From assembly GCF_056712565.1 (NCBI RefSeq), contig NZ_CM160072.1: a DNA stretch of 64,000 nucleotides; one strand, written 5' to 3'. Positions within the stretch are counted from its first letter, which is position 1; every line of letters begins with the position of its first letter. Shown one piece after another: positions 6,001-15,000 of the stretch. Made by a program: the position numbers.

Positions 6001-9000
6001 AGGTAATTCTGCTAGCTGGCATTTTCCCTGCAAACGAACTCTTTTCTCCAGCGTCTCAGCATCACGGTAATAATTGGCGTCCAGTACCAGGGCAACCAAG
6101 GTATTATTTTCCAGATCCAGTAATTCGAGAGAATCAAAACAGCCTTCTTCCGACAAAGTCCCCGAAACACGTTTCGTCACTTCACCTTGCTCATCCATTA
6201 ATGTCTGAGTGAAATCTTTTACGGGACCACGCAGCGGATCAAAATCGAATTCATTAGAGAAACTGGCCATCTCCGGGGTAAATGAAAGTGTTACCTCTGT
6301 GCGGTCACATCCTGTGAGTAATATCGCGAGTAAGCATGGCAGTAATTTGTATTTCACAACAGTCACCTGAGAGTAGAGATAATTCTCAATCATAGTAGCA
6401 AATACAGTACTTTACACGTTAAATGCTATGCTTAAAGAAGTTATCTTCGCGTAAGGAGCTTATGATGAAACTCTCAACCTGCTGTGCCGCGCTTCTGCTC
6501 GCCCTCGCCTCACCCGCGGTACTCGCCGCGCCGGGATCCTGTGAGCGCATACAGAGCGATATATCACAGCGCATTATCAATAATGGCGTACCCGAAAGCA
6601 GCTTCACGTTAAGTATTGTACCCAATGACCAGGTTGATCAGCCTGATTCCCAGGTCGTCGGGCATTGCGCTAATGATACGCATAAAATTCTCTACACCCG
6701 TACCACCAGCGGTAACGTCTCTGCTCCCGCGCAGTCTACCCAGGATAACGCGCCTGCTGAACCGCAGTAACACATTATCGACTGAACGCCGGATACGACA
6801 CATCCGGCGATTTGAACATACAACATAATCCCACCTTATTACTCATACCCTTCTATTGATATGGATTAATAATTATTAACCCCAAATGGGTAGACTCTCT
6901 CTATTGTTAGCGCGCTAAATATTCAATATATAAACATTTATATAACGATAAAGAACAGGGAGTGAGTTATGTCCAAAAATGAACAAATGGTGGGCATCAG
7001 CCGCAGAACACTCGTTAAATCTACCGCGATAGGTTCTCTGGCGCTGGCTGCAGGCGGTTTTTCTTTGCCGTTTACCCTGCGCAGTGCAGAAGCAGCGGTA
7101 CAACAGGCCAACGAAAAAGTGGTCTGGGGTGCCTGTTCCGTCAACTGTGGTAGCCGCTGTGCACTTCGTCTGCATGTTAAAGATAATGAAGTGACCTGGG
7201 TGGAAACTGACAACACCGGCAGCGACGAGTATGGCAACCATCAGGTACGCGCCTGTTTGCGCGGTCGCTCCATCCGTCGGCGTATTAATCATCCCGATCG
7301 CCTGAATTACCCAATGAAACGCGTGGGCAAACGCGGCGAAGGCAAATTCGAACGGATTAGCTGGGATGAAGCCCTGGATACTATCGCCAGTAGCCTGAAA
7401 AAAACCGTCAAACAATATGGCAATGAGGCTGTATATATTCAGTACTCTTCGGGGATTGTTGGCGGCAATATGACCCGCTCTTCTCCATCAGCCTCGGCGG
7501 TCAAACGCCTGATGAACTGCTACGGCGGTTCACTAAATCAGTATGGCTCCTACAGCACTGCGCAAATTTCCTGTGCCATGCCCTACACCTACGGCAGTAA
7601 TGATGGCAACAGCACCACGGATATTGAAAACAGCAAGCTGGTCGTGATGTTTGGTAACAACCCGGCTGAAACCCGCATGAGCGGCGGTGGCATCACTTAT
7701 CTTCTTGAAAAAGCACGCGAGAAATCGAACGCAAAAATGATTGTTATCGATCCGCGATATACCGATACGGCTGCTGGTCGTGAAGATGAATGGCTTCCTA
7801 TTCGCCCTGGCACCGATGCCGCGCTGGTTGCGGGTATTGCCTGGGTATTGATTAACGAAAATCTCGTTGATCAACCTTTTCTCGATAAATACTGCGTCGG
7901 CTATGACGAAAAAACCTTACCCGCAGATGCACCCAAAAATGGTCACTATAAAGCCTATATTCTTGGTGAAGGCGATGATAAAACAGCGAAAACGCCGCAG
8001 TGGGCTTCGCAAATTACAGGTATCCCGGTAGACCGTATCATCAAACTGGCGCGTGAAATTGGCACAGCAAAACCCGCTTATATCTGCCAGGGCTGGGGGC
8101 CGCAACGCCAGGCAAACGGCGAGCTGACGGCACGCGCTATTGCTATGTTGCCTATTTTGACGGGCAATGTCGGCATCAGCGGCGGAAATAGTGGTGCGCG
8201 TGAATCGACCTACACCATTACCATCGAACGCTTGCCGGTGCTGGATAATCCGGTCAAAACGTCAATCTCCTGCTTCAGCTGGACAGATGCTATCGATCAT
8301 GGCCCGCAAATGACGGCAATCCGCGACGGCGTCCGGGGCAAAGATAAACTAGATGTGCCCATTAAGTTCATCTGGAACTACGCGGGAAATACCCTGGTTA
8401 ATCAGCATTCTGACATCAACAAAACGCATGAAATTCTGCAGGACGAATCGAAATGCGAAATGATTGTGGTCATCGAAAACTTTATGACCTCATCGGCAAA
8501 ATATGCCGACATTCTGCTGCCAGACCTGATGACCGTTGAGCAGGAAGATATTATTCCTAACGACTACGCCGGTAACATGGGATATCTCATTTTCCTCCAG
8601 CCTGTCACCAGCGAAAAATTCGAACGCAAACCAATTTACTGGATCCTGAGTGAAGTCGCGAAACGTCTTGGACCTGACGTCTATCAAAAGTTCACTGAAG
8701 GTCGCACGCAGGAACAATGGTTACAACATCTGTACGCCAAAATGCTTGCCAAAGATCCGGCGTTACCGTCTTACGACGAATTAAAAAAAATGGGTATCTA
8801 TAAGCGTAAAGATCCCAATGGTCATTTTGTCGCCTACAAAGCATTTCGTGACGACCCCGAGGCAAATCCACTTAAAACGCCTTCCGGTAAGATTGAAATT
8901 TATTCCAGCAAGCTGGCGGAAATTGCCCGTACCTGGGAACTGGAAAAAGATGAAGTGATAAGCCCACTGCCGGTTTATGCCTCAACCTTTGAAGGCTGGG

Positions 9001-12000: not shown

Positions 12001-15000
12001 CGTATTTATGAATATGCTGGCGGCGACTGGCAGGAAGATAATGGCGTCTGGCACCAGAACGTGTTCGCTTATTATCTCTCCATCTCCTGTAACCATTGCG
12101 ATGACCCCGCATGTACAAAAGTCTGCCCCAGCGGTGCAATGCATAAGCGTGAAGATGGTTTCGTGGTGGTTGATGAAGATGTTTGTATCGGCTGCCGCTA
12201 CTGCCACATGGCTTGTCCGTACGGCGCGCCACAGTACAATGCTGAAAAAGGGCACATGACGAAGTGCGATGGTTGTTATTCGCGCGTCGCCGAGGGGAAA
12301 CAACCCATATGTGTCGAATCCTGCCCACTGCGTGCACTTGAGTTCGGTCCAATTGAAGAATTGCGCCAGAAGCACGGCACTCTGGCTGCCGTCGCGCCAC
12401 TGCCGCGCGCGCATTTCACAAAACCCAATATTGTTATCAAACCTAACGCCAACAGCCGCCCGACCGGCGATACCACTGGTTATCTGGCTAATCCGGAGGA
12501 AGTGTAAAATGGGAAATGGATGGCATGAATGGCCACTGGTTATCTTTACCGTATTGGGTCAATGCGTAGTAGGCGCGCTGATTGTTAGCGGAATTGGCTG
12601 GTTCGCCGCCAAAAATAACGCAGACCGTCAGCACATTATTCGTGGCATGTTTTTCCTCTGGCTGTTGATGGGCATCGGGTTTATTGCCTCTGTCATGCAC
12701 CTGGGATCGCCACTGCGGGCGTTTAACTCGCTGAATAGAATCGGAGCTTCTGGTCTGAGTAACGAGATTGCTGCCGGTTCCATATTTTTTGCCGTTGGCG
12801 GATTATGGTGGCTGGTGGCGGTCATCGGTAAAATGCCGCAAGCGTTGGGGAAACTCTGGTTACTTGTCAGCATGGCTCTCGGCATCATTTTCGTCTGGAT
12901 GATGACCTGCGTGTATCAAATCGACACTGTGCCAACCTGGCATAACGGTTACACTACGCTGGCTTTCTTCCTGACGGTATTGTTGAGCGGTCCAATACTT
13001 GCTGCCACAATTCTACGTGCAGCCCGCGTTACATTTAATACCACACCATTTGCCATCATTAGCATTCTGGCGCTGATCGCTTGTGCCGGGTTGATTGTGC
13101 TGCAAGGTTTGTCTCTGGCGTCTATTCACTCATCCGTACAACAAGCCAGCGCACTGGTACCAGATTACGCCTCCTTACAGGTCTGGCGTGTGGTATTGTT
13201 ATGCGCAGGTCTAGGATGCTGGCTTTGTCCGCTCATTCGTCGCCGTGAACCTCACGTTGCCGGACTTGTTCTGGGGTTAATCCTCATTCTTGGCGGTGAG
13301 ATGATCGGGCGTGTGCTCTTTTATGGCCTGCACATGACGGTAGGAATGGCTATTGCAGGTTAACAAATTGGTGCGGGGCAACCCGCACATTTCAGGATGT
13401 TAGGAATGACCCATTTTTCACAGCAAGATAATTTTTCTGTCGCGGCGCGCGTGTTGGGCGCGCTGTTTTATTACGCTCCAGAGAGTGCGGAAGCCGCACC
13501 TCTGGTTGCGGTACTCACCAATGACAGCTGGGAAACTCAGTGGCCTCTACCAGAAGCGTCATTAGCGCCGCTGGTGACGGCTTTTCAGACACAGAGTGAA
13601 GAGACTCACGCCCAGGCCTGGCAGCGTTTGTTTGTCGGCCCGTGGGCACTGCCGTCTCCGCCGTGGGGATCGGTCTGGCTGGATCGCGAATCTGTGCTGT
13701 TTGGCGATTCAACATTGGCACTTCGTCAGTGGATGCGCGAGAAAGGCATTCAGTTCGAAATGAAGCAAAACGAACCGGAAGATCATTTTGGTTCACTGCT
13801 GCTGATGGCTGCGTGGTTGGCGGAGAATGGTCGCCAGACAGAATGCGAAGAATTGCTGGCATGGCACCTTTTTCCGTGGTCAACACGTTTTCTTGACGTT
13901 TTTATCGAAAAAGCAGAACACCCTTTCTACCGTGCACTGGGTGAACTCGCTCGCTTAACGCTGGCGCAATGGCAATCACAACTGTTGATTCCTGTCGCGG
14001 TTAAACCGCTGTTTCGATAGGATCACCGTATTATTGCCGGATGGTGACGATTACACGCAATTCGGCAATTAATAGGTTACAGTGTCACGTTTTTTTTTAT
14101 CTCTTAAAGCACGCACTGCTTTTGCGGCTGGCCTCTTTTGCCGCAAAATAGTCGCCCGTGTTTCATTGCCCATTTCTGCTCATGCATCATCTACACATCT
14201 ATCCGGATCTGCGCACTATGTTCCGCCGTCTGCTTATCGCAACAATCGTCGGTATTCTTGCGGCCTTTGCCGTTGCCGGGTTTCGTCATGCGATGCTGCT
14301 ACTGGAGTGGCTGTTCCTCAATAATGACTCCGGCAGTCTGGTCAATGCAGCGACAAATCTTTCCCCGTGGCGACGGCTGCTAACCCCGGCGCTCGGCGGA
14401 CTGGCGGCGGGTTTGTTGCTGATGGGCTGGCAGAAATTTACCCAGCAACGCCCTCATGCGCCGACCGATTACATGGAAGCGTTGCAAACCGATGGTCAGT
14501 TTGATTACGCAGCAAGCCTGGTTAAATCGCTTGCCTCTCTACTGGTAGTAACCAGCGGCAGTGCAATTGGTCGCGAAGGTGCGATGATTCTTTTAGCTGC
14601 CCTTGCAGCCTCGTGTTTTGCCCAACGTCTTACGCCACGCCAGGAGTGGAAATTATGGATCGCCTGTGGAGCTGCGGCGGGAATGGCTGCGGCCTATCGC
14701 GCCCCGCTTGCTGGCAGTTTATTTATAGCCGAAGTGCTGTTTGGCACTATGATGTTGGCCTCTCTCGGCCCGGTGATTATTTCCGCCGTCGTGGCGTTGC
14801 TGGTTAGCAATCTTATTAATCATAGCGACGCATTACTCTACAGCGGACCACTGTTGTTAACGTTAATGAACGCCTGTCATCGTGGATTTGTGAGTCTCAA
14901 GCTTGCGCCGCCCTGGCAACTGGCACTGGGCGGGTTGATCGTGGGTCTGCTTTCCCTGTTCACACCTGCAGTGTGGGGCAACGGCTATAGCACCGTACAA

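What the first reader, a model, noticed from the sequence alone, without database searches (positions are those of the whole stretch)
6969..14020. Tandem duplicated catalytic subunits ynfE/ynfF in a DMSO-reductase-like operon
Two adjacent 807/808-aa Tat-dependent molybdoenzyme genes with long identical stretches (e.g. HPDR..[26 protein letters not shown]) are followed by single copies of the Fe-S subunit, membrane anchor and chaperone. This is a known paralogous operon (selenate reductase), listed as the only clear intra-window gene duplication and a potential site for recombination between paralogs.
Basis: partly seen in the sequence, partly recalled or inferred. Interest (0 to 1): 0.25.

Follow-up and report, generated by a model that had tools for sequence, protein, structure and literature searches.

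The report
Known ynfEFGH-dmsD operon; old paralogs
This is the well-known E. coli selenate/tellurate reductase operon, whose two neighbouring catalytic genes are ancient, fully diverged paralogs, not a recent duplication, that show no gene conversion and only rarely recombine into a single hybrid gene in other strains.

Summary
Window 6969-14020 is the intact ynfE-ynfF-ynfG-ynfH-dmsD operon of a B2 E. coli, 100% identical to strains S88 and APEC O1.

YnfE (808 aa) and YnfF (807/808 aa) are 71% identical in protein but only 69.5% in DNA. The "long identical stretches" exist only at protein level:
- The 26-aa identical run carries 12 synonymous differences.
- The longest identical DNA run is 19 nt, about what chance predicts.
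- Synonymous sites are saturated (pS 0.72).

Site-pattern tests across four genera give no sign of gene conversion. YnfE, YnfF and DmsA form three separate clades, each with 100% bootstrap support. YnfF-type genes also head stand-alone four-gene operons in Salmonella, Providencia and Aeromonas. The pair is therefore not a recent tandem duplicate.

Recombination between the paralogs does happen, but rarely:
- 10 of 5,426 complete E. coli genomes carry an exact in-register 2,484-bp deletion. It leaves one ynfE::ynfF hybrid gene, with crossovers in 8-14-nt matches.
- At least six breakpoints appear in protein databases.
- ynfF is often decayed: 665 of 5,426 genomes lack an internal segment.

The feature is already known and of low interest.

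The parts
6856..6869 (+). FNR-like box TTGATATGGATTAA upstream of ynfE (candidate anaerobic activator site)
   Evidence: One mismatch to TTGAT-N4-ATCAA, about 100 nt upstream of the ATG. FNR control of this promoter is recalled from the literature and was not tested here.
6969..9395 (+). ynfE, Tat-exported Mo-bisMGD catalytic subunit (808 aa)
   Evidence: NCBIfam selenate_YnfE scores 1795.5 bits against a cutoff of 1675. Pfam finds Molybdop_Fe4S4, Molybdopterin and Molydop_binding. The protein carries the SRRTLVK twin-arginine motif, and Ser196 aligns with the DmsA Mo-ligand serine. RefSeq annotates it as ynfE.
9396..9455 (+). ynfE-ynfF intergenic spacer (57-60 nt)
   Evidence: The consensus scan finds no promoter-like or terminator-like site here. 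The spacer is not conserved between genera: Salmonella, C. amalonaticus and Pseudocitrobacter have different spacers.
9456..11879 (+). ynfF, second Tat-exported catalytic subunit (807 aa; 808 aa if started at 9453)
   Evidence: NCBIfam selenate_YnfF scores 1770.6 bits against a cutoff of 1650. It has the same three Pfam domains and the SRRSLMK motif. It is 71% identical in protein and 69.5% in DNA to ynfE.
11890..12507 (+). ynfG, four-cluster Fe-S electron-transfer subunit
   Evidence: TIGR02951 DMSO_dmsB scores 264.8 bits against a cutoff of 214.1. It is 94% identical in protein to E. coli DmsB.
12509..13363 (+). ynfH, membrane anchor / quinol-oxidising subunit
   Evidence: Pfam DmsC PF04976 scores 422.7 bits. 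It is 57% identical to DmsC.
13406..14020 (+). dmsD, Tat proofreading chaperone
   Evidence: NCBIfam NF008632 scores 346.6 bits against a cutoff of 162. RefSeq annotation agrees.
9378..9387 (+). 10-nt tract AGATCGAAAA at the 3' end of ynfE, repeated 2,484 nt downstream at the 3' end of ynfF (11862-11871)
   Evidence: Direct comparison. A crossover here would give exactly the ynfE-ynfG junction seen in Escherichia whittamii, which lacks ynfF.

Best explanation
The region is the intact, already characterised ynfEFGH-dmsD operon. It encodes a membrane-bound, periplasm-facing molybdoenzyme of the DmsABC type.

How it works. Two alternative catalytic subunits, YnfE and YnfF, each carry a twin-arginine signal, an N-terminal [4Fe-4S] site and a Mo-bisMGD site with a serine ligand. 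DmsD chaperones them, and they are exported folded by the Tat system. Each is inferred to pair with the single YnfG Fe-S subunit and the single YnfH quinol-oxidising anchor. This would give two isoenzymes that reduce selenate and tellurate. According to the literature, YnfE is the main selenate reductase.

Evolution. The two genes are not a young tandem duplicate. They belong to two old, separately conserved lineages of the DmsA family. They have evolved independently under purifying selection, without gene conversion, since at least the common ancestor of Escherichia, Salmonella, Citrobacter amalonaticus and Pseudocitrobacter.

Variation in other strains. Because the genes are collinear, adjacent and in the same orientation, rare in-register crossovers in matches of roughly 8-14 nt collapse them into one full-length ynfE::ynfF hybrid. 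Ordinary illegitimate deletions and IS insertions also erode ynfE and ynfF in many E. coli lineages.

Shown here: gene identities, divergence statistics, the phylogeny, and the hybrid and deletion alleles. Inferred or taken from the literature: enzyme activity, shared use of YnfG and YnfH, and FNR control.
For: Identity and intactness: 100% match to S88 and APEC O1; annotation; both catalytic genes exceed their own NCBIfam cutoffs; YnfG and DmsD models are met; Pfam domains, DmsC; Tat motifs, conserved Mo-ligand serine position.

Old divergence without conversion:
- 69.5% nt identity, longest identical run 19 nt.
- pS 0.72, dS about 2.3, dN/dS 0.09, no 60-codon window below pS 0.55, and 12 synonymous differences inside the 26-aa identical run.
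- quartet counts of 234-325 orthology sites, 31-70 within-genome sites and 45-63 cross sites. Paralog identity is 68-70% in all four genera.
- DmsA, YnfE and YnfF clades each have 100% bootstrap support.
- YnfF-clade genes head their own four-gene (A-B-C-D) operons in Salmonella, Providencia and Aeromonas, and a three-gene (A-B-C) operon in Pluralibacter.

Recombination and decay:
- 10 of 5,426 complete genomes have a span exactly 2,484 bp shorter.
- a single 2,427-nt hybrid gene in two alleles, with crossovers in a 14-nt tract and in a tract of about 8-10 nt.
- six distinct in-register breakpoints among 808-aa database proteins.
- out-of-register in-frame fusions.
- a double deletion in ynfF, and 665 of 5,426 genomes lacking its internal 580 bp.
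- IS1 and IS3 insertions.

Function from the literature: PMC5203670, PMC12724226, PMC12096835. High pseudogene frequency of ynfE and ynfF in E. coli: PMC13322260.
Against:
- Whether YnfE and YnfF really alternate on the same YnfG-YnfH pair rests on operon structure and older literature.
- The tree is neighbour-joining with midpoint rooting and has no outgroup outside the three clades. The sister relation of YnfE and YnfF is therefore not firmly rooted.
- An ancient tandem duplication followed by dispersal of YnfF-type genes cannot be told apart from later insertion of a YnfF-type gene into a ynfE-G-H-dmsD operon.
- Most Enterobacteriaceae sampled have only ynfE, so the direction of change, gain or repeated loss of ynfF, is inferred by parsimony only.
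Confidence: 0.9

Rival explanations
1. A recent in-situ tandem duplication, kept partly homogeneous by gene conversion. The long identical protein stretches would then be conversion tracts.
For: The genes are adjacent, collinear and of equal length, offset by exactly 2,484 nt downstream of codon 175. They share identical protein runs of up to 26 aa.
Against: - The identical protein runs are peppered with synonymous differences (12 in 78 nt).
- pS is 0.72 overall and never below 0.55.
- The longest identical DNA run is 19 nt, which equals the chance expectation.
- Quartet tests show no excess of within-genome sites.
- The paralogs fall into separate clades with 100% bootstrap support that span several families.
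Confidence: 0.02
2. ynfF is a redundant copy on its way to loss, so the operon is effectively a single-enzyme (YnfE) system. The pair has no functional meaning beyond history.
For: - YnfF contributes little to selenate reduction in Salmonella (PMC5203670).
- Most Enterobacteriaceae carry only ynfE, and E. cloacae uses a single-copy srnABCD operon.
- 665 of 5,426 complete E. coli genomes lack an internal ynfF segment.
- A widespread B2 sublineage has two deletions in ynfF.
- E. whittamii lacks ynfF cleanly.
- ynfE and ynfF are among the most often pseudogenised metabolic genes in E. coli (PMC13322260).
Against: - In this window ynfF is intact and scores above its family cutoff.
- Long-term dN/dS is 0.09.
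- YnfF orthologs are slightly better conserved than YnfE between E. coli and Salmonella, C. amalonaticus and Pseudocitrobacter (89-91% against 86-89%). This argues for sustained selection on a distinct function.
- About 88% of complete genomes retain the segment tested.
Confidence: 0.3
3. The pair did not arise by local duplication at all. A YnfF-clade catalytic gene from a stand-alone F-B-C-D operon was inserted between ynfE and ynfG. Alternatively, ynfE was placed in front of such an operon. Either event would have happened in the ancestor of Escherichia, Salmonella and Citrobacter.
For: - YnfF-clade genes head their own operons in Salmonella, Providencia, Aeromonas and Pluralibacter.
- In Serratia, Rahnella and Ewingella, ynfE sits in front of a DmsA-type A-B-C-D operon. 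In Budvicia, ynfE with its own B and C genes is followed by a DmsA-type A-B-C set, and the two C subunits are nearly identical.
- Trees of the anchor and chaperone subunits follow host taxonomy rather than the clade of the catalytic subunit. This suggests that the modules are reshuffled.
Against: There is no direct trace of an insertion event. The stop-to-start junction between the A and B genes is the same in all these operons, so it cannot discriminate. An ancient tandem duplication followed by dispersal explains the same data.
Confidence: 0.4

Closest known systems
E. coli / Salmonella ynfEFGH-dmsD selenate (and tellurate) reductase operon (Lubitz & Weiner 2003; Guymer et al. 2009; Fujita et al. 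2021, as cited in PMC12096835 and PMC5203670)
   Same: It is the same locus: the sequence is 100% identical to annotated E. coli genomes, with the same five genes in the same order.
   Different: Nothing differs in the window itself. This B2 allele is about 97.6% identical to K-12 over the 8-kb query.
E. coli DmsABC DMSO reductase
   Same: The same three-subunit architecture, Tat export and DmsD dependence. YnfG is 94% identical to DmsB.
   Different: The catalytic subunits are only 65-67% identical, and the anchors 57%. dmsABC has one catalytic gene and lies at another locus, next to serS.
Single-copy srnABCD / ynfE-ynfG-ynfH-dmsD operons of Enterobacter, Klebsiella, Kluyvera and the Citrobacter freundii complex (PMC12724226)
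   Same: The YnfE ortholog is 84-87% identical. The downstream B, C and D genes match, as does the short stop-to-start junction between the A and B genes.
   Different: These operons have no ynfF. Some genera retain only ynfE-dmsD.
Stand-alone YnfF-clade operons (a four-gene Salmonella locus of the kind described for STM2530-2527 and STM4305-4308 in bioRxiv 10.1101/2022.11.29.517730; also Providencia and Aeromonas)
   Same: The catalytic subunit is 76-79% identical to YnfF, closer than YnfE is. It is followed by B, C and D genes.
   Different: There is no ynfE upstream, and the genomic neighbourhoods differ.

Membership tests
DMSO/selenate family reductase A subunit (NCBIfam YnfE NF041885, YnfF NF041884, TIGR02166) | Whole-protein score above the curated cutoff of the specific model | tested here: met
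   YnfE scores 1795.5 against 1675. YnfF scores 1770.6 against 1650. Each scores below the other's cutoff (about 1477-1479).
DMSO/selenate family reductase A subunit | Twin-arginine (Tat) signal peptide | tested here: met
   SRRTLVK in YnfE and SRRSLMK in YnfF, aligned with SRRGLVK of DmsA.
DMSO/selenate family reductase A subunit | N-terminal Cys cluster for a [4Fe-4S] centre, plus molybdopterin and MGD-binding domains | tested here: met
   Pfam PF04879, PF00384 and PF01568 are found in both proteins. The CxxxCxxxC motif is visible.
DMSO/selenate family reductase A subunit | Serine ligand to Mo (DmsA Ser176 in the old numbering, precursor residue 205) | tested here: met
   YSSAQ in DmsA aligns with YSTAQ (Ser196) in YnfE and YnfF. 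That this serine is the ligand is recalled from the literature.
DMSO/selenate family reductase A subunit | Selenate/tellurate reductase activity | not testable with these tools
   Literature only: a ynfEF deletion abolishes selenate reduction in E. coli (PMC12724226). YnfE is the main enzyme in Salmonella (PMC5203670).
DmsABC-type complex operon with DmsD | Fe-S subunit, DmsC-type anchor and DmsD chaperone encoded downstream | tested here: met
   TIGR02951 scores 264.8 against 214.1. PF04976 scores 422.7. NF008632 scores 346.6 against 162.
Young tandem duplicate under concerted evolution (gene conversion) | Tracts of low synonymous divergence, or DNA identity longer than the roughly 25-nt minimum for efficient RecA-dependent exchange | tested here: not met
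   The longest identical run is 19 nt. The minimum pS in any 60-codon window is 0.55. The 25-nt threshold is recalled from the literature.
Young tandem duplicate under concerted evolution (gene conversion) | Paralogs group by genome rather than by gene in a phylogeny, or there is an excess of within-genome shared sites | tested here: not met
   The clades are separate with 100% bootstrap support. Conversion-type sites number 31-70, against 45-63 for the homoplasy control.
Paralog pair prone to unequal (in-register) recombination | Natural alleles with one hybrid gene and a deletion equal to the paralog spacing | tested here: met
   Ten of 5,426 complete genomes have an exact 2,484-bp deletion. 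Hybrid structure was verified in five of them. Six breakpoints are seen among database proteins.

The most novel reading that the evidence does not exclude
The catalytic genes of the DmsA family behave as an exchangeable cassette that repeatedly recombines in register despite about 30% DNA divergence.

In E. coli this gives full-length YnfE::YnfF chimeras with at least six different junctions. If they are active, they are natural domain swaps between two molybdoenzymes.

In Salmonella serovar Paratyphi A, the same kind of exchange between dmsA and ynfE appears to have fixed an inversion of the chromosome segment between the two loci. It would have left reciprocal chimeric genes that share a 314-nt converted block.
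Probability: 0.3. Interest if true: 0.4.

Novelty: already known. Interest (0 to 1): 0.2.

Why it matters
For the window itself it matters little: this is a textbook operon, intact and correctly recognised.

The check is still useful in three ways. First, it corrects a tempting inference. Long identical protein runs in adjacent paralogs need not mean identical DNA or ongoing gene conversion. Here they reflect purifying selection on cofactor-binding segments.

Second, the population data add a modest point. Even paralogs that are 30% diverged occasionally collapse in register through very short matches. The result is intact-looking chimeric molybdoenzyme genes, which annotation pipelines label inconsistently. 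One hybrid allele is called "ynfF" and another "DmsA/YnfE/YnfF family".

Third, ynfF is absent or broken in roughly one complete E. coli genome in eight. That bears on expression or knockout studies of "ynfF" in such strains.

Tried and rejected
- **Long identical DNA tracts.** I looked for them by codon alignment and sliding windows and found none.
- **Older gene conversion.** I tested four-taxon site patterns in four genera and saw no signal.
- **Hidden E/F or E/A mosaics.** I checked whether the single-copy ynfE genes of other genera are mosaics that would betray past in-register collapse. Only five of 79 loci had marginal 40-aa windows, and none had a real mosaic segment.
- **Internal promoter or terminator.** I looked in the ynfE-ynfF spacer and found nothing by consensus scan.
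- **Solved structures.** None exists for DmsA, YnfE or YnfF. The closest are Rhodobacter DMSO reductase and TorA, so I ran no structure-based comparison.
- **Assembly artefacts.** I considered that the hybrids might be artefacts and rejected this. They occur in complete genomes of at least two backgrounds. One allele is shared by eight genomes. The shared DNA words are shorter than assembler k-mers.
- **Published reports.** Literature searches found no report of ynfE/ynfF gene conversion or hybrids, or of a dmsA-ynfE inversion in Paratyphi A. The searchable library is incomplete.

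
Full report
**What is there.** Window 6500-14500 is 100% identical to the chromosomes of E. coli S88, APEC O1, MS7163 and other B2 strains. RefSeq annotates the stretch as follows, in window coordinates:
- ynfE, 6969-9395
- ynfF, 9456-11879
- ynfG, 11890-12507
- ynfH, 12509-13363
- dmsD, 13406-14020

The ORF list agrees.

Both catalytic proteins exceed the curated cutoff of their own NCBIfam model. YnfE scores 1795.5 against 1675, and YnfF scores 1770.6 against 1650. Each fails the other's cutoff. YnfG, YnfH and DmsD match the DmsB, DmsC and DmsD models. Both catalytic subunits have:
- a twin-arginine motif;
- the N-terminal Cys cluster;
- the molybdopterin and MGD-binding domains;
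- a serine aligned with the Mo-ligand serine of DmsA.

An FNR-like box lies at 6856-6869. The ynfE-ynfF spacer has no promoter-like or terminator-like site.

**How similar the two genes are.** Protein identity is 71% over 801 aligned residues. At DNA level the picture differs:
- Identity is 69.5%.
- The longest identical run is 19 nt, against about 18 expected by chance for this identity and length.
- The 78 nt encoding the 26-aa run differ at 12 positions, all synonymous.
- Nei-Gojobori estimates give pS 0.72 (dS about 2.3, saturated), pN 0.18 and dN/dS 0.09. No 60-codon window has pS below 0.55.

The identical protein stretches are thus conserved cofactor-binding segments under purifying selection. 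They are not conversion tracts.

**Test for older gene conversion.** I extracted ynfE and ynfF from the four genera in which both are present: E. coli, Salmonella, Citrobacter amalonaticus and Pseudocitrobacter. In every species pair, sites supporting orthology number 234-325. They far exceed sites supporting within-genome grouping (31-70). The latter equal the third, meaningless pattern (45-63) and do not cluster. Paralog DNA identity is 68-70% in all four genera, with longest identical runs of 19-29 nt. I see no gene conversion since these genera diverged.

**Age and origin of the pair.** A neighbour-joining tree of 38 catalytic subunits recovers DmsA, YnfE and YnfF as three clades, each with 100% bootstrap support.
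- YnfE orthologs extend across Enterobacterales and are still 79.5% identical in Budvicia. That exceeds the 71% between YnfE and YnfF within E. coli.
- The YnfF clade contains proteins 76-82% identical to YnfF from a second Salmonella locus, Providencia, Actinobacillus, Aeromonas and Pluralibacter.
- In Salmonella, Providencia and Aeromonas these genes head their own A-B-C-D operons. In Pluralibacter the gene heads a second A-B-C set directly downstream of dmsABC.

Among 80 species with a close YnfE relative, only four loci, from three genera, have ynfF next to it (Salmonella twice, C. amalonaticus and Pseudocitrobacter). The remaining arrangements are:
- Most have ynfE-ynfG-ynfH-dmsD, the arrangement published as srnABCD for Enterobacter cloacae (PMC12724226).
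- Some have only ynfE-dmsD.
- Serratia, Rahnella and Ewingella have ynfE followed by a DmsA-type gene and then B-C-D.

Trees of the anchor and chaperone subunits follow host taxonomy rather than catalytic-subunit clade. In Budvicia and Pluralibacter, two neighbouring operons have nearly identical C subunits but divergent A subunits. "Tandem duplication" is therefore at best an ancient event. Later insertion of a YnfF-type gene into a ynfE operon fits the data equally well, and I cannot decide between the two.

**Does the pair recombine?** In this window there is no trace of it, but other strains show it. A protein search with YnfF returned E. coli proteins of exactly 808 aa that are 82-88% identical to YnfF. 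Site-by-site classification shows that each is a clean single-crossover chimera, YnfE at the N-terminus and YnfF at the C-terminus. There are six different breakpoint intervals: residues 344-347, 366-381, 382-386, 451-459, 459-468 and 513-522.

To count such alleles in complete genomes, I joined 2 kb from each flank into one query, so that only shortened loci would match as a single place. Twelve of 5,426 genomes did, and ten of them span exactly 2,484 bp less than normal. The five I inspected have ynfD, one 2,427-nt gene, then ynfG-ynfH-dmsD. There are two alleles:
- One occurs in two K-12-like strains. It is consistent with K-12 parents at all 568 informative sites and crossed over in a 14-nt identical tract.
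- The other occurs in eight genomes and crossed over in an identical tract of about 8-10 nt.

Exact in-register events are far too frequent among deletions to be random. I infer that the flanking 70% similarity guides them, even though the identical words are shorter than the roughly 25 nt usually quoted for efficient RecA-dependent exchange. That figure is recalled from the literature.

Escherichia whittamii lacks ynfF altogether. Its junction is what a crossover in the 10-nt tract AGATCGAAAA, shared by the two 3' ends, would produce. The same junction is ancestral in single-copy species, so this case is ambiguous.

**Erosion of the locus.**
- Out-of-register in-frame fusions of 946-1206 aa exist. 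Two of them are found on dozens of contigs. Their deletions are 2,070 bp with no microhomology and 1,470 bp with 6 nt of microhomology.
- One 1220-aa protein is an internal ynfE duplication.
- A B2 sublineage represented by strain Ecol_732 has two deletions inside ynfF, at window 10170-10749 and 11524-11797. RefSeq annotates that gene as a frameshifted pseudogene.
- Across all complete genomes, 665 of 5,426 lack that 580-bp segment.
- IS1 and IS3 insertions, larger deletions and loss of ynfE-ynfH also occur.
- A 2026 pangenome study lists ynfE and ynfF among the most often pseudogenised metabolic genes of E. coli (PMC13322260).

Against this stand the long-term dN/dS of 0.09 and the 89-91% conservation of YnfF between E. 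coli and the three other genera that carry it. Both show that the gene has been maintained by selection for a long time.

**Function and mechanism (literature plus inference).**
- The operon encodes the Tat-dependent selenate reductase. In Salmonella, YnfE is the principal catalytic subunit and YnfF contributes little. DmsD binds the signal peptides of DmsA, YnfE and YnfF (PMC5203670).
- Deleting ynfEF abolishes selenate reduction in E. coli, and a single-copy ortholog from E. cloacae restores it using the E. coli YnfG, YnfH and DmsD (PMC12724226).
- The genes are also cited as tellurate reductase genes (reference list of PMC12096835).

That the two catalytic subunits alternate on one YnfG-YnfH module is inferred from the operon structure.

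**A related observation outside the window.** In Salmonella, an 818-aa protein found on 64 contigs has three parts: DmsA (about 1-245), YnfE (about 246-645) and YnfF (the rest). It lies between serS and ynfG-ynfH-dmsD.

I searched with a synthetic reciprocal chimera. This found an 808-aa YnfE::DmsA protein on 76 contigs, named by NCBI as from serovar Paratyphi A. It lies between ynfA-D and dmsB-dmsC-ycaD.

The two genes share a 314-nt perfectly identical ynfE-type block and are about 70% identical elsewhere. In LT2 the two operons are numbered in opposite directions: STM0964-0966 against STM1499-1495. The simplest reading is an inversion between dmsA and ynfE with an associated conversion tract. 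I could not confirm that both genes come from the same genomes, and I found no report of this inversion in the searchable literature.

**Verdict.** The feature is real, correctly located and correctly named, and it is already known. The implied idea of a young duplicate with identical DNA tracts is wrong. The suggestion that it is a recombination site is right, but only as a rare, short-match, in-register collapse seen in about 0.2% of complete genomes. Interest is low.

Noticed in passing
window 14182-15399 (clcB), deletion point near 14843-14852: clcB in this window has a 75-bp in-frame deletion (25 codons) relative to K-12 and ST131-type strains. RefSeq annotates 1,218 nt here against 1,293 nt elsewhere. 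BLAST alignments overlap by 10 nt at the deletion point. 140 of 5,426 complete E. coli genomes lack the segment.
   Followed up: partly
L082 (E. coli Ecol_732) 3457-5026; window equivalents 10170-10749 and 11524-11797: A B2 sublineage carries two separate deletions (580 and 274 bp) inside ynfF, which RefSeq annotates as a frameshifted pseudogene. About 10-12% of complete genomes are affected (6 of 60 evenly spaced rows show this pattern; 665 of 5,426 genomes lack the 580-bp segment). A 2025 study measured ynfF expression in the uropathogenic strain EC958. I did not check whether that strain carries these deletions.
   Followed up: partly
L097 6001-8457 and L100 6001-8427 (Salmonella enterica): Two apparently reciprocal chimeric genes: DmsA::YnfE::YnfF beside serS, and YnfE::DmsA beside ynfD. 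They share a 314-nt identical block. This suggests an inversion between the dms and ynf loci, with gene conversion, in serovar Paratyphi A. Each gene is seen on 64-76 contigs.
   Followed up: partly
L081 (Budvicia) 8879 and 12997; L096 (Pluralibacter) 3876-4739 and 8060-8923: Neighbouring DmsABC-type operons in one genome have nearly identical anchor (C) subunits but catalytic subunits from different clades. This points to duplication or homogenisation of the B-C module independent of the catalytic gene.
   Followed up: no
L003, L008, L011, L022, L026, L032-L034 and others: In several Enterobacter, Lelliottia and Yokenella species, ynfE is followed directly by dmsD, with no Fe-S or anchor gene. 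YnfE there must use partners encoded elsewhere or work without them.
   Followed up: no
P0124, P0127 (ENA metagenome contigs): YnfE::DmsA in-register chimeras of 808-809 aa from unidentified Enterobacteriaceae. They are consistent with collapse of a ynfE-dmsA tandem like the one in Serratia and Rahnella.
   Followed up: no
window 54385-54999 vs 59383-60078: The only other paralog pair in the window: 38% identity over 142 aa (E 1e-14). I did not identify it.
   Followed up: no
E. coli genomes: Eight complete genomes labelled E. coli carry the ynfF internal segment at only 80-90% identity. They may be cryptic-clade strains or imported alleles.
   Followed up: no
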